From: Enterobacteria phage GEC-3S
Direction: 5' to 3' (one strand)
DNA: 64,000 nt
Sequence record: HE978309
Shown: in pieces, positions 2,047 to 32,607 of the stretch
Position numbering within the stretch: position 1 is the first letter of the stretch
How the letters are laid out: every line of letters starts with the position of its first letter
The notes under the pieces: model-generated
What the model was told of the DNA's origin: nothing
Seen by the model: only the letters and a program-made list of their open reading frames with translations
The model's database searches: none
Made by a program: the position numbers and the translations under genes

Positions 2047-2634
2047 CTAAATATCTAACCAAGACAAGTCAGATCCGCCCAAGATTTTTTCGACGGCGGA
2101 TCTATTTTCTTGATGATATAAGTTAAAACATGGTATCCCATGTCTACGGGCAACATAAACAGCAATTCGAGTTCCTCCCGAAACGATTCCATTAACTTCT
2201 TTCGCCCAGAATATCACACAATCTACAGGATCATCAAGTGTCTCACCTAAGACTTGAGCAACATTTCTAGAAAACAGATTTTGCATGTATAACGGTATAG
2301 AACGAGGATTATCATAAACGTGTTCTAATTCATCCATCGCCAGATTTTTTTGTTCTAAGGTTTGCCATGCAATCACATCATGACCGTTATGCTTGTGGTC
2401 ATAAAACTTCCAATTTGGAATGAAAATTTTTCTATAATCTGGATCGTAATACTTCATGAAAGCATTGTCCATACCGTAAGCCCCTCCAGAATGCGCTACA
2501 ACGCGATTTTCTGACAATACCCTCCCAATGGTACTAGCCATTATCAAAATGTCGCTAGGCGCTTTTCTAGAGCCGATTAAAGCACATCTACGAAGTGGTT
2601 TTACTCCAAATAGATCTTGTAACTGGTCAAACAT
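2047..2634 (-). CDS. DprA/Smf-like Rossmann-fold protein
   Basis: Motifs IGSRK, SGGAYGMDNA, FSRN, GGTRIAVYVARRHGIPCF resemble DprA Rossmann domain; GGAGG RBS; function inferred. Confidence 0.6.
   Translation of the reverse strand: MFDQLQDLFGVKPLRRCALIGSRKAPSDILIMASTIGRVLSENRVVAHSGGAYGMDNAFMKYYDPDYRKIFIPNWKFYDHKHNGHDVIAWQTLEQKNLAMDELEHVYDNPRSIPLYMQNLFSRNVAQVLGETLDDPVDCVIFWAKEVNGIVSGGTRIAVYVARRHGIPCFNLYHQENRSAVEKILGGSDLSWLDI
2071..2111 (+). terminator. Possible terminator for gene 24 embedded in 3' end of convergent gene
   Basis: 9-bp stem AGATCCGCC/GGCGGATCT with long loop followed by T-rich run; weak. Confidence 0.3.
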
Positions 2635-2786
2635 AATATTTCCTCCATAGAAAGCAATATCATACTACAAGTTAATAACAAATACAAGTATCCGCGTAGC
2701 GGAAGCGAGCACAGCGAGCAATAAAACACTTCCAGTAATTGATTAATAAATGTTCGAAACAAATTTTTATTATTCTATAAGATAAG

Positions 2787-2812
2787 TCTTCGTTTTGATC
2801 ATAATTTAATCA
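2787..2812. repeat. 26-bp direct repeat, copy 1 (TCTTCGTTTTGATCATAATTTAATCA)
   Basis: Perfect 26-bp repeat in AT-rich intergenic region upstream of DprA-like gene. Confidence 0.8.
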
Positions 2813-2935
2813 TACATGTAAAAACTACACAAAAGGATATCGCTTCGCGAACTCCTACGGAGTATAACATTTGTGTTACAATATGTAGTGATTAATAATT
2901 AACCAAAGATACATTTTCTATGTTCTAAAGATCTT

Positions 2936-2961
2936 TCTTCGTTTTGATCATAATTTAATCA
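2936..2961. repeat. 26-bp direct repeat, copy 2
   Basis: Identical to copy at 2787-2812, 149 bp apart; nearby TGATTAATAA also duplicated. Confidence 0.8.
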
Positions 2962-3011
2962 AACAGTATTAATATTGTGCACATGTAAACTAAAATTATG
3001 TTAATAACAGA

Positions 3012-3040
3012 TACAAAAAAGCCGCCCCAAAGGACGGCTA
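3012..3040 (-). terminator. Terminator after minus-strand gene 3048..3485
   Basis: A-run / AGCCGCC..GACGGCT hairpin on plus strand (hairpin plus U-run on minus transcript). Confidence 0.5.
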
Positions 3041-3047
3041 ATGTTAA

Positions 3048-3485
3048 TTATTTGTTGATAACGATCTGATTTCGGCGAATGGTAACATTACTCTTAGAGA
3101 TGATCAGATCATCCGGCACTACGTTAGTTTTGTATGGTTGGAAGCGAACAAGCATCTGATTGCGTTTAGACCCTTCCTTAATCTTGATTTCCATCTGGAT
3201 ATTGTTGCCTACGTGAGCAACCGCAATTTCACCTTTATTCTCATAGACCCACTTGCTGGTAACGTCTCCAGCAAAAGCCTTAATAACTTGCAATGCTTCG
3301 TCGTATGCGGTAGAGCTGTGAACTTTCAGAAGGCCAGCCGTAGCAAGACGTGAGCAGGTGATCGCCGGAGATTGCCAAACATCAACATTAATTTGCTCAA
3401 TCAGAGTAACACCGCCCTGATCAACTGCTTTGAATGCTTCGAACATTGCCTTTTTCATTGCTACGTGGTTTTTACGGAATTTCAT
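3048..3485 (-). CDS. Hypothetical protein (145 aa)
   Basis: ORF with GAGGTG RBS; no recognised domain. Confidence 0.6.
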   Translation of the reverse strand: MKFRKNHVAMKKAMFEAFKAVDQGGVTLIEQINVDVWQSPAITCSRLATAGLLKVHSSTAYDEALQVIKAFAGDVTSKWVYENKGEIAVAHVGNNIQMEIKIKEGSKRNQMLVRFQPYKTNVVPDDLIISKSNVTIRRNQIVINK

Positions 3486-3531: not shown

Positions 3532-3807
3532 TCAGGACATTGCCCTTTTGAATGCGTCCATTATAACAGTGTTATTTGGCTTGTCAACACGTTTTTGAAC
3601 TTTATTTTTAAATTTTTTGTTGATGTGGTGTTTACGATAAACAACCTTTTCACGGTTGGCGTAAGCCTCGCGTGCGTCTTTTACCATCAACCATGCCTTA
3701 GCCGCATCTTGTCCGCTGATCCCGCCAATCTTCTTAGCAATATCAACAAAATTAAGACCGTGGTCTTCGCGTAGCATGTAAACCATTAACGCTGTTTTCT
3801 TGTCCAT
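3532..3807 (-). CDS. Hypothetical protein (91 aa), translationally coupled
   Basis: Internal ATG at 3807 overlaps stop of upstream gene (TGATG); ORF-track ORF extends to 3915. Confidence 0.45.
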   Translation of the reverse strand: MDKKTALMVYMLREDHGLNFVDIAKKIGGISGQDAAKAWLMVKDAREAYANREKVVYRKHHINKKFKNKVQKRVDKPNNTVIMDAFKRAMS

Positions 3808-4004
3808 CACTTCGCCCCATTGACGATTAACAGGATAGTGATTAGCACCGGAAACTGGATCATGATAGTGCCAATAAACCGGATAAATGCATTTTCTGAC
3901 TTCCACACATGACATGCGACTAGCTGATAGACCATTGTTGAAACCAGAACTAGGATATAAACCGAAAGCGGTGTAACTTCGATTAGTCGGGAAATCTCAT
4001 TCAT
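3807..4004 (-). CDS. Small membrane protein (65 aa, two hydrophobic segments)
   Basis: GAGGTG RBS; hydrophobic runs LSVYILVLVSTMVYQLV and IMIQFPVLITILLIV. Confidence 0.5.
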   Translation of the reverse strand: MNEISRLIEVTPLSVYILVLVSTMVYQLVACHVWKSENAFIRFIGTIMIQFPVLITILLIVNGAK

Positions 4005-27204: not shown

Positions 27205-27681
27205 TTATTTTTCTTGATGCTCGCGCTCGTACTTTTCGAAATAAAATTCTACTGGCTGATCGTGGATTGAAAGCAAGCCAAAGCGTTTAGCCGCTCGCAA
27301 TCCCATATTGCGCTGAATGTACTTCTGGAAGTTCTCGCGTATACACTTACGCCAGTATTCTAAGCCCATACAGCTTTTATAAAGATTGCATTGCACACAC
27401 GCCGGATTCATGTTATCAAGTATATCATGTTCCGGTTTATGCATTCCTACAACCTTATACTTCCACGATCCATCATCATTACGGGCAATTCGTCCATTTT
27501 CATCATAGACTACCTTTGAGCGTCGCAATACTGGTTTGATATGGTCTGCGTGCCAGCGATCCCCTAGTTCCTCGCCACAATAGGCACAACGCCCACCGTA
27601 TTTCATTTTCAGGATCTGGCGTTGCTCTTTCTTTGACAATTTTTTAGGTTTAGGGGCTTTCGCCCCTTCATTATCACACAT
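27205..27681 (-). CDS. HNH homing-endonuclease-like protein
   Basis: CAYCG ... WHADHIKP ... CVQCN (HNH-type Cys/His motifs); overlaps 3' end of ligase gene by 8 nt. Confidence 0.7.
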   Translation of the reverse strand: MCDNEGAKAPKPKKLSKKEQRQILKMKYGGRCAYCGEELGDRWHADHIKPVLRRSKVVYDENGRIARNDDGSWKYKVVGMHKPEHDILDNMNPACVQCNLYKSCMGLEYWRKCIRENFQKYIQRNMGLRAAKRFGLLSIHDQPVEFYFEKYEREHQEK

Positions 27682-29170
27682 CGAATACCTCTTTTACTGT
27701 ATTTGCCGTGGTCTTGTCGTAGCGAATACGTTTGATGATCGGGAGAAATAAAGAGAACTCCGGTTCATCTTCTTTACGTGATTTGCTGCGAATGTACCCG
27801 TTGCATGTCATCTCAATGACTTTTCCGACCAGGTTATGCCGTTCAGCCCATAACATTTCTCGGTCAAGTTCATTTCGACGATCGAACGGAATTACACGTT
27901 CAGTACCATCATCACCTTTTTCGGTTGTAGTGTCGGTTAATCCCGATCCGGTGTTAGTCATCATTCGTCCGCACGCACTACGGACAGTAAAACCGCCTAC
28001 CTTATTGGGGTCTTTACTATGCGGATATACATCAACAATTTCCGCGTCGAAGTCAATAACTTCTTTAAATTTAACCTGATCTTTACTGCGACGATCTTCA
28101 AATACACCATGTAAATTTTTAAGGATAATACCTTCTAAGCCCATGTTTACATAGCGATGATATACTTCGCGAGCTTCATCGATATTGTTAACTACGGTAT
28201 TTTCGATTATCTGAACACGAGGATCGTTAAGTTCTTCAACAATCTGTTTTAGTTCTTCGAATCGATCTTTATATTGCTTCGTTGCTTTCTCGTTTCCGTA
28301 ATACACATCACGGTCGATAACATCCCAGACAGTGTAAACAATACATTGGGCTTCTTCTTTTGGAATAGTTCCTTTCAGTGATTTGTTGAGGATACCATTT
28401 CCGGTCTGACGATCTGCAACAACGGATTCTTTCACCGCTTCCGCTACTGGCGTTAATGGCATTTCCTCTTCTTCAAATATCCATGACAGAGTACCATCAT
28501 AAACGCTCTCAACGAAGTTCTGCGCTGGTGTTTGCGAAAGGGTAGGCATATATACCAATTCGCCATCTAGAACAATTCCACGGCCTCGTAGACGCTCTAA
28601 AACCGCAAACAAATCATCAAGCCCTTGATAGGTATTACCTGAGCGGGTATAGATTGCTAATGTTTCCCCGTCAATATCAGCCATACCACGAGCGCCATCG
28701 CTTTTAAGTTGTGCATACGCCGGATACTTGATATTAGAAATAGTCTTATCAGAACATGACGATGCAAGGTGGCACGGTTGCTGAGGGATCAGTTTCTTCC
28801 ATACCTTGTTTGCAGTGGTAGCGGAACAACCGCATTCCAGGTCACGATTCAGGACCATCATTGCAACTTTAGCATCATCCTCTGACAAGCAAGTCAGAGT
28901 ATCGGTAACTAGCTGTAATGCTGCGTTGCCAGTTACTTGACGCGTGGCAAGTTTATTTTTAAAGACCTGTAATGCACCGGATAAAGACAATACAGACGAA
29001 TAGCGAGATGGTTTATCGTATTTCTTTACGCCAAACGTAACCTGTTTGCAATATGCCAGATAAAAGCATTCTTTCAGCGTTTCATTGCTCGCGGATTCTT
29101 TCAGAATCTTTTCTTTCAGCGATGTTTTGTCTGTTGCTGCAAGCTGATTAATGATATTAAGAATTGACAT
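27674..29170 (-). CDS. 30: ATP-dependent DNA ligase gp30
   Basis: Aligns with T4 DNA ligase (AQLKSDGAR KxDG site; TRQVTGNAA; NRDLECG; ANKSLKGTI.KEEAQC; EGIILKN); ATG at 29170 with GAGGTG RBS. Confidence 0.93.
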   Translation of the reverse strand: MSILNIINQLAATDKTSLKEKILKESASNETLKECFYLAYCKQVTFGVKKYDKPSRYSSVLSLSGALQVFKNKLATRQVTGNAALQLVTDTLTCLSEDDAKVAMMVLNRDLECGCSATTANKVWKKLIPQQPCHLASSCSDKTISNIKYPAYAQLKSDGARGMADIDGETLAIYTRSGNTYQGLDDLFAVLERLRGRGIVLDGELVYMPTLSQTPAQNFVESVYDGTLSWIFEEEEMPLTPVAEAVKESVVADRQTGNGILNKSLKGTIPKEEAQCIVYTVWDVIDRDVYYGNEKATKQYKDRFEELKQIVEELNDPRVQIIENTVVNNIDEAREVYHRYVNMGLEGIILKNLHGVFEDRRSKDQVKFKEVIDFDAEIVDVYPHSKDPNKVGGFTVRSACGRMMTNTGSGLTDTTTEKGDDGTERVIPFDRRNELDREMLWAERHNLVGKVIEMTCNGYIRSKSRKEDEPEFSLFLPIIKRIRYDKTTANTVKEVFDV

Positions 29171-29636
29171 TTTCACCTCGTTTTGTTAAACGTTCACGAA
29201 TATCATTGAGGATACTACAAAATTCCGATTCAGTCAATATAGTCTTTAACGGATCTGTTCCACCTATACTATGACGCAATTTCTTATTTCCGGTAGCGAG
29301 TAATGCTTTACAAAATTCTGGGTTATTCCGTGCCATCGTAACAAATGCCAGATGTACCAGTCTGTAATAATGCTCACTCATTCGATGAATCGGGCGACCC
29401 TGAAAATATAGCATGTGATTCTCTATCTTTTCAGTCCTTCCGGTTCTTTTTGCTTTGCCACCGTGCATCAAAAAGATTTCTCTTTGTCTCTGGGGGTTCT
29501 TGAATCTTAATCCCTGTAAAAATCCTTCTGTGCTGTTAATATCGCAACCAAATAGACGGAATGGTCTTTTATTGAAATTACTCAATTCACCCGATGGATA
29601 AGGTCCACCCGCATAGATATCAATTTCATAAGTCAT
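29157..29636 (-). CDS. NADAR (YbiA-like) domain protein
   Basis: SNFNKRPF, STEGFLQGLRF, KALLATGNKKL...GG resemble NADAR family motifs; function inferred. Confidence 0.5.
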   Translation of the reverse strand: MTYEIDIYAGGPYPSGELSNFNKRPFRLFGCDINSTEGFLQGLRFKNPQRQREIFLMHGGKAKRTGRTEKIENHMLYFQGRPIHRMSEHYYRLVHLAFVTMARNNPEFCKALLATGNKKLRHSIGGTDPLKTILTESEFCSILNDIRERLTKRGENVNS

Positions 29637-31073: not shown

Positions 31074-31277
31074 TTAACCGTATACGCGAAAGTATTCTAC
31101 TGATCCGTCGCTATACTGTTTTACATTGAATGTATTCACACCATGATTATTGCTCATAATGACATATACACTACGACGCTCATCGCTAAACGGGTTAACT
31201 GGTGCGGGTTCAATTTCAACATTAAAACCACGTTTAGCAAGTGCTTCGCCTAATTGCTTGAGTTTATCGGTAAACAT
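31074..31277 (-). CDS. Hypothetical small protein (67 aa)
   Basis: ORF with GGAGAC RBS; TAATG coupling to pseT. Confidence 0.5.
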   Translation of the reverse strand: MFTDKLKQLGEALAKRGFNVEIEPAPVNPFSDERRSVYVIMSNNHGVNTFNVKQYSDGSVEYFRVYG

Positions 31278-32155
31278 TAAAAGTCTCCGTAGTTAACCTG
31301 AAAACATTCTACACCAATTGCGCGGTACATGTCAACCACTTGATCACGGTCATCTACTGCCAACACAACATGATAACGCGGTGCAATTTCAGAGAAGAAA
31401 ATCTCTTTCTTCACTTCATGGTCAGGACGACGATCATTAGTTTCACGTTGAAAGTGATCACTAGGTTCAATACCCTGTTCACGCAGCCATTGCAGAGTAT
31501 CTTCTTCGCAAACATCCTCACGCCCTGAGCATGTAATGATACGATAACCATTATCACGATACAGTTTAAGCATTTCGATCACTTGCGGACGCGGTTTATC
31601 TTCTTTGACCTTTGTCCAGTCAAACGGATGACGACCGCCCTTATCCGCTAATGTCCCATCAATATCAAAGATCACTGCTTTCGGCAGCATGGTATTCGGT
31701 TTGTATACTTCTTGACCCATATATTCCTGCATCAGATAAAATTGGTTGCGCAAATGAGAAAGTGGAATTGCTTTCTCTCCGCGATAGAAATTACGTTTCT
31801 TTAGTGTCTCAAATGATTCATTGAACACTTGTTCAGTATACACCGCGTTAAATTCTTTTGCAAGTTTTTTGTAGAATACACGATGTTTTTCTTTCAGGTT
31901 AGTATCAGAGATAATGATACTTAATCCGCGTGATAGAGTCTCACGAGCAATCATTCTCTGAATAGACTCTACCAGCTTTTCTTTTTCCTTAGTATACTTG
32001 TATTTCAAATGTGAGTCAACACCAAACAACATAAGACGAAGGTCATCACGATTCACATTACGATAATTACTAAACCGTTTACATGTCTCCATAGCCCATG
32101 TAGTTTTACCGGACCCAGAACAACCAACGGTTAAAATCACTTCACATTTCGGCAT
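31277..32155 (-). CDS. pseT: Polynucleotide 5'-kinase / 3'-phosphatase
   Basis: P-loop GCSGSGKTT and HAD motif DIDGTL in same order as T4 Pnk; ATG at 32155 with AAGGAG. Confidence 0.9.
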   Translation of the reverse strand: MPKCEVILTVGCSGSGKTTWAMETCKRFSNYRNVNRDDLRLMLFGVDSHLKYKYTKEKEKLVESIQRMIARETLSRGLSIIISDTNLKEKHRVFYKKLAKEFNAVYTEQVFNESFETLKKRNFYRGEKAIPLSHLRNQFYLMQEYMGQEVYKPNTMLPKAVIFDIDGTLADKGGRHPFDWTKVKEDKPRPQVIEMLKLYRDNGYRIITCSGREDVCEEDTLQWLREQGIEPSDHFQRETNDRRPDHEVKKEIFFSEIAPRYHVVLAVDDRDQVVDMYRAIGVECFQVNYGDF

Positions 32156-32607
32156 TATTTCTCCTTCGGTTTGCACCGTTCCTCATTAAGTTCTTTGCGA
32201 TAATAACACATGATCAACTTACTTTCAAGTGTATATCTCTTAATATCCGCAAGCCAGACTCTGAATTTTTGGGAGTCCTCCCACGACATAGAAACTCTAG
32301 GTTTACCGTCTATTGTATCCACTTTCAGGTCAATGTCAACTTTTTCTATTGGTGCTGGTAGTGGAGGATGTAATTTCGGTTCTTGTGAATAATGGTCCAT
32401 TGTACACGAAGAAAGCACAAATACAATAGGCACAGCGAAGACATGGATTATGGAGGTCTGAAAATTCTTGTGTACTTTCTTAAACATCCAGTGTATCACG
32501 AAAATTGAAAACACCATCAGAATAATAATGCTTGCACCTATCCACAAATAATCAACCAGATTAAAATTGCTTATCTGCTCTTGCGTAGGCAATATTTCTA
32601 TGCTCAT
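32155..32607 (-). CDS. o-spanin candidate (lipobox, Pro-rich); N-terminal extent uncertain
   Basis: Lipoprotein signal MFKKVHKNFQTSIIHVFAVPIVFVLSSC then PPLPAP; full ORF has AAGGAGG RBS and ATGA coupling at 32607; possible internal start at 32487. Confidence 0.5.
   Translation of the reverse strand: MSIEILPTQEQISNFNLVDYLWIGASIIILMVFSIFVIHWMFKKVHKNFQTSIIHVFAVPIVFVLSSCTMDHYSQEPKLHPPLPAPIEKVDIDLKVDTIDGKPRVSMSWEDSQKFRVWLADIKRYTLESKLIMCYYRKELNEERCKPKEK

What the first reader, a model, noticed from the sequence alone, without database searches (positions are those of the whole stretch)
2047..2634. DprA/Smf-like protein convergent with head gene 24
The 195-aa ORF carries DprA Rossmann-domain motifs (GSRK; SGGAYGMDNA; FSRN; GGTRIAVYVARRHG). 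In T4 this position holds rnlB and small ORFs, not a DprA homolog. A phage DprA-like protein could load the UvsX/RecA recombinase, or act as a SLOG-type nucleotide-binding domain.
Basis: partly seen in the sequence, partly recalled or inferred. Interest (0 to 1): 0.5.

Follow-up and report, generated by a model that had tools for sequence, protein, structure and literature searches.

The report
Phage mini-DprA (SLOG) nucleotide-pocket protein
The 195-residue gene next to head gene 24 is a real, already annotated member of a large phage family of stripped-down DprA-like (SLOG) nucleotide-binding domains. Its recurrent fusions to ADP-ribose-removing enzymes suggest it helps the phage cope with host ADP-ribose-based defences rather than acting as a classical recombinase loader, but no experiment has tested this.

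Summary
The ORF (2047-2634, minus strand, 195 aa) and all four quoted motifs are present. The window is a Krischvirus (RB49/Phi1/ECD7-like). RefSeq already labels this gene "DprA-like DNA recombination-mediator protein" (RB49p164), and it matches PHROG 768 at E 1e-60. Homologues occur in 1,353 of 50,697 phage records and in about 4,300 protein clusters.

By sequence and by fold, the closest solved relative is the DprA Rossmann domain. Both published DprA ssDNA-pocket motifs (G-S-R and L-x-x-R-N) are family-wide invariants. However, it fails the Pfam and TIGRFAM DprA cut-offs. It lacks the SAM and C-terminal domains, and the ends of the DprA Rossmann domain also appear to be missing. It is best described as a minimal SLOG domain of the YpsA/DprA clade.

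The family is fused, in both domain orders, to NADAR domains in at least 23 protein clusters. It is also fused to DUF4326, Macro, RecJ and a PD-(D/E)XK nuclease. It often lies near NAD-salvage, Macro or NADAR genes. This window carries a separate gp30.3/AdfN-type NADAR.

My best reading is a nucleotide/ssDNA-pocket protein coupled to ADP-ribose processing as counter-defence. A role as a classical UvsX/RecA loader is less likely. The identification is already known; the function is untested.

The parts
2047..2634 (-). Coding sequence of the 195-aa minimal DprA-clade SLOG protein (equivalent to RB49p164, PHROG 768). The stop codon is at 2047-2049.
2642..2646 (-). GGAGG ribosome-binding site, 7 nt upstream of the ATG at 2634-2632.
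   Evidence: Read directly from the reverse-strand sequence.
2566..2574 (-). [quoted passage not shown] This is DprA motif 1, 'G-S/T/A-R'. R23 aligns with H. pylori DprA R52.
   Evidence: Across 140 family members: G 139, S 124, R 137. Alignment to HpDprA. Motif definition in PMC3950713.
2467..2490 (-). Codons for S49-G-G-A-Y-G-M-D56, the glycine-rich loop after strand 2. It carries the G-x-D signature of the YpsA/DprA clade.
   Evidence: G50, G54 and D56 are invariant; S49 and A52 are >=96% conserved. GxD/E signature from PMC6459960. The spacing from GSR to this motif (26 residues) equals that in E. coli Smf.
2254..2277 (-). Codons for L120-F-S-R123-N124-V-A-Q127, in helix 115-129. This is DprA motif 2, 'F/L/Y-x-x-R-N/D', plus a family-specific Gln.
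   Evidence: Across 140 members: R123 139, N124 135, Q127 135, L120 114. The helix is in the AF2 model. Motif definition.
2170..2178 (-). Codons for G153-G154-T155, the loop before helix 155-164. It corresponds positionally to 'SGS' in DprA and 'GGxGT' in LOG. The LOG catalytic Glu is absent.
   Evidence: 139/140 for each residue. LOG motif P-G-G-x-G-T-x-x-E as quoted in PMC3950713.
2122..2124 (-). Codon for N171, a family-specific near-invariant Asn at the end of the last core strand.
   Evidence: 136/140. Strand 169-171 in the AF2 model.
2060..2112 (+). Stable hairpin followed by AUUUUCUU, directly after the gene 24 stop. It is probably the gene 24 transcript terminator and is embedded in the last ~20 codons of the minus-strand ORF.
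   Evidence: strand folding: -28.1 kcal/mol, z = -6.3, 0 of 200 shuffles as stable. Its role as a terminator is inferred.
3020..3039 (-). Terminator-like hairpin plus T-run ending the upstream ORF (3048..3485). It implies the DprA-like gene has its own promoter in the 370-nt spacer.
   Evidence: No promoter was identified, so this is an inference.
29157..29636 (-). gp30.3/AdfN-type NADAR gene next to DNA ligase gp30. It is a candidate functional partner. The link is inferred from domain fusions in other phages and has not been shown for this phage.
   Evidence: PF08010 at 132.5 bits. NADAR-SLOG fusions. NADAR activity and its anti-DarTG1 role are described in PMC11825919 and PMC11543638.

Best explanation
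The ORF encodes a stand-alone, minimal SLOG-superfamily domain of the YpsA/DprA clade. It is essentially the core of the DprA Rossmann domain without DprA's SAM domain, C-terminal domain or sheet extensions.

Its near-invariant residues are the GSR loop, SGGAxGxD loop, LxxRNxxQ helix, GGT loop and N171. By homology with DprA they form the single nucleotide-binding pocket at the C-terminal edge of the sheet. In H. pylori DprA that pocket holds one nucleotide of ssDNA.

I infer that the phage protein uses this pocket to bind, and possibly to hydrolyse at the N-glycosidic bond, a nucleotide moiety. That moiety could sit on ssDNA or on an ADP-ribose derivative. I also infer that it works in the same pathway as ADP-ribose-processing enzymes (NADAR, Macro, DUF4326). 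This would be a counter-measure to host NAD+/ADP-ribose-based defences, such as DarT-type ADP-ribosylation of ssDNA or ADPr-derived signals. In this phage the likely partner is the separately encoded gp30.3/AdfN-type NADAR.

Shown here: homology, fold, motif conservation, fusions and gene neighbourhoods. Inferred: the ligand, any catalysis, the partnership with gp30.3 and the counter-defence role.
For: Family and fold:
- PHROG 768 at E 1e-60.
- AF2 model pLDDT 84.
- Foldseek: the top nine hits are HpDprA.

Pocket:
- Family-wide invariants across 140 and 62 diverse members.
- Both DprA ssDNA-pocket motifs are present, as is the GxD clade signature.

Coupling to ADP-ribose enzymes:
- Pfam finds NADAR fused to the domain in P0047, P0123, P0154 and in the polyvalent proteins P0017 and P0019. 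It finds DUF4326 in P0137.
- Further fusions: DUF4326 in L075, DUF488-N3a+NADAR in L153, and a sub-threshold Macro hit in L162.
- Of 117 relatives of P0047, 23 carry both domains: 13 in the order NADAR-SLOG and 10 in the order SLOG-NADAR. Both orders imply independent fusion events.
- All fused copies keep the pocket motifs.
- The SLOG domain of P0047 is 36% identical to the query, within the range of stand-alone members.

Neighbourhood:
- About 12 of 63 lineages, by my own count from the table, have Nampt, Prs-like, Macro or NADAR genes within 6 kb, often within 1.3 kb.

This phage:
- It encodes a gp30.3-type NADAR.

Literature:
- NADAR, including T4 gp30.3/AdfN, removes ADP-ribose from guanine in DNA and defeats DarTG1 (PMC11543638, PMC11825919).
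- Iyer et al. 2022 independently predicted ADPr-related roles for viral SLOG domains fused to Macro, NADAR and DUF4326 (PMC9503650).
Against: - There is no biochemical or genetic evidence for any member of this family.
- In this window the gene is stand-alone and about 27 kb from the NADAR gene.
- NAD/ADPr-related neighbours occur in only about one fifth of lineages. The enrichment was not tested against whole-genome backgrounds.
- Other fusions (RecJ, PD-(D/E)XK nuclease), an adjacent SSB in 3 bacterial loci, DNA ligase neighbours and the mostly basic pI (median 8.6) fit plain DNA metabolism equally well.
- The LOG catalytic Glu is absent, so hydrolysis is speculative.
- T4 AdfN works without such a partner, and T4 lacks this gene.
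- In T4-like genera the conserved neighbour is Rnl2, not an ADPr enzyme.
Confidence: 0.42

Rival explanations
1. Classical DprA-like recombination mediator or ssDNA-protecting protein. It binds phage ssDNA (replication or recombination intermediates, or injected DNA ends) through the DprA pocket, and either loads UvsX or host RecA or acts as an accessory ssDNA-binding protein.
For: - DprA is the closest solved relative by sequence and fold.
- Both ssDNA-binding motifs are conserved.
- The family's median pI is 8.6.
- There are fusions to RecJ and to a PD-(D/E)XK nuclease.
- SSB is adjacent in three bacterial loci, and DNA ligase neighbours occur in 4 lineages.
- The DprA-like ShosA binds ssDNA and RecA (PMC12961424).
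- Iyer et al. 2021 suggested this role for jumbo phages.
Against: - It scores below the DprA family cut-offs.
- It lacks the SAM domain and the C-terminal region. To my recollection, the pneumococcal DprA dimer and RecA interface lies in that C-terminal region.
- The phage already has UvsY, the dedicated UvsX mediator.
- The query itself is slightly acidic (pI 6.4).
- No recombinase gene is a recurrent neighbour.
- The dominant fusions are to ADP-ribose enzymes.
Confidence: 0.25
2. Soluble-signal sponge or hydrolase. The pocket sequesters or cleaves ADPr-derived immune signals, such as the cADPR isomers of Thoeris, without involving DNA. This is what Iyer et al. 2022 proposed for viral SLOG domains.
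For: - Neighbours include NAD-salvage, Macro and NADAR genes.
- The prediction is published (PMC9503650).
Against: - The family is closer to DprA than to ThsA or LOG.
- NADAR's demonstrated substrates are ADP-ribosylated nucleic-acid bases.
- The LOG catalytic Glu is absent.
- No sponge or hydrolase of this fold turned up in the anti-defence literature I searched.
Confidence: 0.15
3. Antitoxin mimic. The phage protein substitutes for the labile DprA-like antitoxin of ShosTA or PsyrTA-type systems during host shut-off.
For: - Weak PADLOC hits to PsyrA (E 4e-5) and ShosA (E 3.5e-4).
- ShosA is unstable, and its loss triggers ShosT toxicity.
Against: - The hits cover only the 45-residue GSR-to-GxD segment shared by all DprA-like domains.
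- The SAM domain, which ShosA needs for stability, is absent.
- ShosA's antitoxin activity requires dimerisation and RecA binding. Neither can be assessed for this protein.
Confidence: 0.06
4. RNA-repair accessory acting with RNA ligase 2, for example by handling nucleotide or ADPr by-products of tRNA or RNA repair.
For: - The gene directly follows rnlB in Jiaodavirus and Karamvirus, where the rnlB stop overlaps its start.
- It lies 1-2 small ORFs downstream of rnlB in Slopekvirus and Gualtarvirus.
- T4 has rnlB in the same slot.
Against: - This is a single inherited synteny within one phage family, not independent evidence.
- This Krischvirus keeps the gene although no Rnl2 is found in the window.
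- Outside the Straboviridae, Rnl2 is not a recurrent neighbour.
Confidence: 0.06

Closest known systems
DprA/Smf Rossmann-fold domain (PF02481; H. pylori DprA 4LJK/4LJR, R. palustris 3MAJ, S. pneumoniae 3UQZ)
   Same: - The motifs run in the same order: GSR, SGxAxGxD, (F/L)xxRN, (S/G)G(S/T).
- The GSR-to-glycine-loop spacing is identical to E. coli Smf.
- The ssDNA-pocket residues R52, R143 and N144 of HpDprA have counterparts in R23, R123 and N124.
   Different: - It scores below the Pfam and TIGRFAM cut-offs, and only ~45 residues align by HMM.
- By motif mapping it lacks the first ~45 and last ~25 positions of the domain.
- It has no SAM or C-terminal winged-helix domain.
- It has family-specific invariants (Q127, N171 and the LPWxGFN loop).
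- It is encoded mainly by phages and is fused to NADAR, DUF4326 and Macro rather than standing in competence or recombination contexts.
Viral SLOG domains of the YpsA-like clade described by Iyer, Burroughs, Anantharaman & Aravind 2022 (PMC9503650), which correspond to PHROG 768
   Same: - Stand-alone phage proteins enriched in larger phages.
- They carry the GxD signature.
- They are fused to NADAR, Macro and DUF4326, and sporadically to nucleic-acid enzymes.
- This is almost certainly the same family.
   Different: That paper does not single out the DprA-type ssDNA-pocket motifs. It predicts action on soluble ADPr signals. I did not verify accession by accession that the two sets are identical.
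ShosA and PsyrA (DprA-like components of the ShosTA and PsyrTA defence systems)
   Same: - Weak PADLOC hits over the GSR-to-GxD segment.
   Different: - ShosA has a SAM domain, a nine-stranded sheet, a dimer interface and RecA binding.
- PsyrA carries a PRTase domain.
- Both are bacterial and paired with a toxin or partner gene. None of this applies here.
LOG / PpnN phosphoribohydrolases (PF03641) and the ThsA SLOG sensor domain
   Same: - Glycine-rich loops in equivalent positions.
- The LOG chemistry (cleaving a base-to-ribose-5-phosphate N-glycosidic bond) is what removal of ADP-ribose from a base would require.
   Different: - The PGGxGTxxE motif with its catalytic Glu is not present.
- The GSR and RN motifs are of the DprA type.

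Membership tests
DprA/Smf (Pfam PF02481) | Score at or above the Pfam gathering threshold (29.6 bits) over the ~212-position domain | tested here: not met
   22.3 bits, E 8e-5, covering only residues 15-60 against profile positions 45-90. The same pattern holds in 20 other family members.
DprA/Smf (NCBIfam TIGR00732 equivalog) | Score at or above the curated cut-off (191 bits) | tested here: not met
   14.4 bits.
DprA/Smf | ssDNA-pocket motif 1, 'G-S/T/A-R', in the loop after the first core strand (Wang et al. 2014) | tested here: met
   G21-S22-R23 follow strand 16-20. Family-wide counts out of 140: 139, 124 and 137. R23 aligns to HpDprA R52.
DprA/Smf | ssDNA-pocket motif 2, 'F/L/Y-x-x-R-N/D', in a helix (Wang et al. 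2014) | tested here: met
   L120-F-S-R123-N124 lie in helix 115-129. R is 139/140 and N is 135/140. Equivalence to HpDprA F140, R143 and N144 rests on motif order and spacing, not on a residue-level structural alignment.
DprA/Smf | Fold similarity to solved DprA Rossmann domains | tested here: met
   [not shown]
DprA/Smf | Full architecture: extended Rossmann sheet plus an N-terminal SAM domain and/or a C-terminal winged-helix domain | tested here: not met
   The protein is 195 aa. The model has a five-strand core plus a small hairpin. HMM alignments start at profile position ~45. No other Pfam domain is detected.
DprA/Smf | Dimerisation and direct RecA (or UvsX) binding, with loading of the recombinase on ssDNA | not testable with these tools
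   This needs biochemistry. The region that I recall forms the pneumococcal DprA dimer and RecA interface appears to be absent.
DprA/Smf | ssDNA binding | not testable with these tools
   Only the motif conservation and the basic pI of most members (median 8.6; query 6.4) bear on this.
SLOG superfamily, YpsA/DprA-like clade | Rossmannoid SLOG fold with a glycine-rich loop after strand 2 carrying the G-x-D/E signature | tested here: met
   G54-x-D56 is invariant. Signature from PMC6459960. All top fold hits are SLOG members.
PHROG 768 ('DprA-like DNA recombination-mediator protein') | Significant full-length match to the PHROG profile | tested here: met
   E 1.2e-60, 205 bits, residues 15-187 against profile positions 4-181 of 191.
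LOG / lysine-decarboxylase-like (PF03641) | P-G-G-x-G-T-x-x-E motif with the catalytic Glu | tested here: not met
   The sequence is V-S-G-G-T-R-I-A-V, with no Pro and no Glu. Family-wide, GGT is followed by R, A, G or N. There is no Pfam hit to PF03641.
ShosTA / PsyrTA antitoxin or partner (PADLOC) | Full-length match plus an adjacent ShosT or PsyrT partner gene | tested here: not met
   The hits cover only 45 residues, at E 4e-5 and 3.5e-4. The neighbours are gene 24 and small phage ORFs.
NADAR-coupled viral SLOG module | Physical fusion or adjacency to a NADAR, Macro or DUF4326 domain | tested here: inconclusive
   The feature is met for the family: 23 fusions in both domain orders, plus neighbourhoods. 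In this phage the protein is stand-alone, and the gp30.3 NADAR gene lies ~27 kb away.

The most novel reading that the evidence does not exclude
The minimal DprA-like SLOG domain is the ssDNA- or adduct-recognising partner of the phage NADAR (AdfN), or is itself a third class of ADP-ribosyl-base N-glycosidase. Under this reading it uses DprA's nucleotide-flipping pocket to find ADP-ribosylated bases on single-stranded phage DNA. That would extend anti-DarT counter-defence to substrates or hosts that NADAR alone cannot handle.
Probability: 0.15. Interest if true: 0.7.

Novelty: already known. Interest (0 to 1): 0.33.

Why it matters
Identifying the gene adds nothing new. It is annotated in RefSeq, it forms PHROG 768, and viral SLOG domains have been surveyed computationally.

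What does matter is that the standard label, "DNA recombination-mediator protein", is probably misleading for about 1,350 phage genomes. The family is an abundant and experimentally untouched phage protein. Its strongest functional signal is a repeated, bidirectional fusion to NADAR, an enzyme now known to strip ADP-ribose from DNA bases and to defeat DarTG1.

That signal turns the annotation into a concrete, testable hypothesis about phage counter-defence against nucleic-acid ADP-ribosylation or ADPr signalling. Krischvirus phages, which are easy to grow on E. coli K-12 and carry both genes separately, would be a convenient test system.

Tried and rejected
1. HMM and profile alignment of the family to E. 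coli Smf and to PDB DprA chains gave significant alignment only over the first ~50-60 residues. Equivalence of the later motifs therefore rests on order and spacing, not on a residue-level alignment.
2. The search for related loci with the 62-sequence alignment failed because no conserved 7-10 column stretch was available. A 13-sequence alignment worked.
3. The bacterial-genome scan found only 94 confirmed loci in 185,579 species with the two patterns used. Their contexts were heterogeneous, mostly prophage-like or MAG contigs, with no conserved operon partner. It gave no functional lead beyond an adjacent SSB in 3 loci.
4. A sigma-70 promoter scan of the upstream spacer found no convincing promoter for the gene, so expression timing stays unknown.
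5. No Rnl2, Nampt or Macro gene was found in the window. tblastn with an IMG/VR NADAR query missed the gp30.3 gene, which only an HMM and then Pfam recovered.
6. Literature searches for experimental work on phage DprA-like or SLOG proteins found none. This covered NARP3, Thoeris sponges, Migulavirinae immune evasion and DUF4326.
7. I rejected a LOG-type cytokinin/NMP phosphoribohydrolase identity because the catalytic motif is absent.
Clustering of the invariant residues into one pocket is therefore inferred from their secondary-structure positions and from DprA, not measured.

Full report
**Observation.** The ORF is present as described: 2047..2634 on the minus strand, ATG start, 195 aa. A GGAGG site lies 7 nt upstream of the ATG. 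The four quoted motifs are all in the translation: GSRK 21-24, SGGAYGMDNA 49-58, FSRN 121-124 and GGTRIAVYVARRHG 153-166. The ORF is tail-to-tail with the gp24 gene, with no spacer. The first 6 kb of the window are 98-99% identical to Krischvirus genomes such as ECD7, Phi1 and RB49. In RefSeq the orthologue RB49p164 is already named "DprA-like DNA recombination-mediator protein".

**What family it is.**
- The protein matches PHROG 768 almost end to end (E 1.2e-60).
- Against Pfam, DprA (PF02481) is the only hit. It scores 22.3 bits against a 29.6-bit cut-off and covers only residues 15-60. TIGR00732 scores 14.4 against 191.
- PADLOC gives weak hits to the DprA-like PsyrA and ShosA over the same short segment.
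- tblastn finds homologues in 1,353 of 50,697 phage records, infecting Klebsiella, Pseudomonas, Escherichia, Aeromonas, Vibrio, Acinetobacter and others.
- An exhaustive profile search finds 4,319 clusters at 50% identity, mostly stand-alone proteins of about 180 aa.
- A scan of 185,579 bacterial and archaeal species genomes confirmed only 94 loci with the two patterns used. Their contexts were heterogeneous and often phage-like. The same patterns gave 457 confirmed hits in IMG/VR. The family is therefore essentially viral.

**Structure.**
- An AlphaFold2 model (pLDDT 84, pTM 0.84) shows an alpha/beta Rossmann-like core.
- In Foldseek against the PDB, the top nine hits are H. pylori DprA (E 3e-5).
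- PDB sequence-profile searches also return DprA first.
- No phage homologue has a solved structure.

**Conserved residues.**
- Across 140 diverse members the near-invariant positions are G21, S22, R23, P26; S49, G50, A52, G54, D56; P73, F77; L120, R123, N124, Q127; G153, G154, T155; and N171.
- Wang et al. (PMC3950713) showed that H. pylori DprA binds ssDNA through a small pocket. They proposed 'G-S/T/A-R' and 'F/L/Y-x-x-R-N/D' as signatures of the ssDNA-binding DprA domain, in contrast to the 'PGGxGTxxE' motif of LOG.
- The phage family has both DprA motifs, in the corresponding loop and helix, and lacks the LOG motif.
- G-x-D is the substrate-binding signature of the YpsA clade of SLOG (PMC6459960).
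- The order of the motifs, and the 26-residue spacing from GSR to the glycine loop, match E. coli Smf.
- HMM alignments always begin at about position 45 of the 212-position DprA profile. By motif mapping the protein also ends about 25 positions early. It has no SAM or C-terminal domain.
- It is thus a minimal DprA-clade SLOG core. It does not pass as a member of the DprA family as curated.

**Context and fusions.** These give the main functional signal.
- Pfam shows the domain fused to NADAR in P0047, P0123 and P0154, and in the ~1,480-aa polyvalent proteins P0017 and P0019. The two polyvalent proteins also carry YAcAr and SLOG-cluster-4 domains. The domain is fused to DUF4326 in P0137 and to RecJ in P0138.
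- The fetched loci add further fusions: DUF4326-SLOG; DUF488-N3a-NADAR-SLOG; SLOG-Macro, where the Macro hit is below Pfam's cut-off; and SLOG-PD-(D/E)XK nuclease.
- Searching with the fusion protein P0047 returned 117 relatives. Of these, 23 carry both domains: 13 as NADAR-SLOG and 10 as SLOG-NADAR. Both orders imply independent fusion events.
- Every fused copy keeps the GSR, SGGAxGxD, LxxRNxxQ and GGT motifs.
- The SLOG domain of P0047 is 36% identical to the query, like typical stand-alone members.
- In 88 phage loci, grouped into 63 lineages at 70% identity, the recurrent neighbours are NAPRTase/Nampt-family genes (8 lineages), dCMP deaminase (8), Macro (5), PhoH (5), Prs-like (4), NADAR (4) and DNA ligase (4). 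By my count from the table, about 12 lineages have at least one NAD/ADPr-related neighbour, often within 1.3 kb (examples).
- In the T4-like genera Jiaodavirus, Karamvirus, Slopekvirus and Gualtarvirus the gene lies just downstream of rnlB, beside gene 24. This is a single inherited arrangement, not independent evidence.
- The present window has no Rnl2, Nampt or Macro. It does encode a gp30.3-type NADAR at 29157..29636, next to DNA ligase.

**Relation to the literature.**
- Iyer et al. 2021 noted DprA/Smf homologues in jumbo phages as possible extra ssDNA-binding proteins.
- Iyer et al. 2022 described viral SLOG domains of the YpsA-like clade as stand-alone or fused to Macro, NADAR and DUF4326. 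They predicted that these domains sense or degrade ADPr derivatives. That description fits this family.
- Since then NADAR has been shown to remove ADP-ribose from guanine in DNA. T4 gp30.3 (AdfN) has been shown to neutralise DarTG1, whose toxin, as I recall, acts on ssDNA (PMC11543638, PMC11125620, PMC11825919).
- ShosA, a bacterial DprA-like antitoxin, binds ssDNA and RecA.
- I found no experiment on any phage member of this family.

**Interpretation.** What is shown is a conserved nucleotide pocket of the DprA type in a stripped-down domain, and a repeated evolutionary coupling to ADP-ribose-processing enzymes. I therefore favour, at about 0.4, a role in the ADP-ribose branch of phage counter-defence. 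The pocket would bind a nucleotide moiety on ssDNA or on an ADPr derivative. This could reconcile the two published views, because the validated substrate of NADAR is ADP-ribosylated DNA.

The rivals, with my estimates:
- Classical recombination mediator or ssDNA protector, about 0.25. It is supported by the motifs, the basic pI of most members and the RecJ, nuclease and SSB associations. It is weakened by the missing DprA interface regions, the presence of UvsY, and the lack of recombinase neighbours.
- Soluble-signal sponge or hydrolase, about 0.15.
- ShosA-type antitoxin mimic, about 0.06.
- Rnl2 accessory, about 0.06.

None of these can be decided without biochemistry or genetics.

**Verdict.** The identification is already known. 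Interest is modest and lies in an abundant, probably mislabelled, untested family with a concrete and testable link to NADAR.

Noticed in passing
window 29157-29636 (-), with 27674-29176 (-) and 27205-27681 (-): A gp30.3/AdfN-type NADAR gene (PF08010, 132.5 bits) sits directly upstream of the ATP-dependent DNA ligase gp30. An HNH endonuclease ORF lies just downstream of the ligase. T4 AdfN is a proven anti-DarTG1 factor, so this Krischvirus probably has that counter-defence.
   Followed up: partly
window 2060-2112 (+): A very stable hairpin (-28.1 kcal/mol, z -6.3) followed by AUUUUCUU starts 14 nt after the gene 24 stop. It lies inside the last ~20 codons of the convergent DprA-like ORF. It looks like a late-transcript terminator embedded in the opposite-strand coding sequence. 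The simple terminator scan missed it because of its long loop.
   Followed up: partly
window 2647-3039: The 370-nt spacer upstream of the gene begins with a strong terminator-like hairpin (3039-3020, minus strand). It contains two direct repeats: 38 nt at 89% identity (2779-2816 and 2928-2965) and 17 nt (2671-2687 and 3000-3016). In both 17-nt copies the repeat follows a hairpin. These may be duplicated promoter or regulatory modules; no sigma-70 consensus promoter was found.
   Followed up: partly
window 1-64000; 31277-32176 (-): No RNA ligase 2 homologue is detectable in the window, although T4 and four other T4-like genera carry rnlB in the slot beside gene 24. A polynucleotide kinase/phosphatase (PseT-like) is present. 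Whether Krischvirus carries rnlB elsewhere in the genome was not checked.
   Followed up: partly
window 3048-3485 (-) and 3532-3915 (-): The 145-aa ORF immediately upstream of the DprA-like gene has no Pfam match. In RB49 it is RB49p165, annotated 'similar to RC0835, UPF0192'. The next ORF is a DUF2774 (gp24.3-like) protein. The ORF listing starts that ORF at 3915, whereas the RB49 CDS is 108 nt shorter.
   Followed up: no
proteins P0017 (1475 aa) and P0019 (1488 aa); locus L147 4621-8298: These are giant polyvalent proteins. P0017 and P0019 contain two copies of this SLOG domain, a YAcAr SLOG, a SLOG-cluster-4 match and a C-terminal NADAR. The L147 ORF shows one copy of the domain and, by eye, a C-terminal NADAR. 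Large regions of all three have no annotation. They look like injected multi-enzyme anti-defence proteins.
   Followed up: partly
loci L020, L062, L066, L067 (DUF7831 neighbours); L111 4767-5813: A small DUF7831 protein recurs next to the family in 3 lineages. In one bacterial MAG a region with a similar motif (FVFGSNLAGRHGKGAA... versus FVFGDNLKAFGKGGQA...) is fused N-terminally to the SLOG domain, but Pfam did not detect DUF7831 in that fusion. The function of DUF7831 is unknown.
   Followed up: no
GenBank records MW748999 (Skers) and others: Some records label this gene 'putative RNA ligase', apparently by positional transfer from T4 rnlB. One record calls its homologue 'YspA SLOG family protein'. 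Annotation of the family is inconsistent.
   Followed up: no
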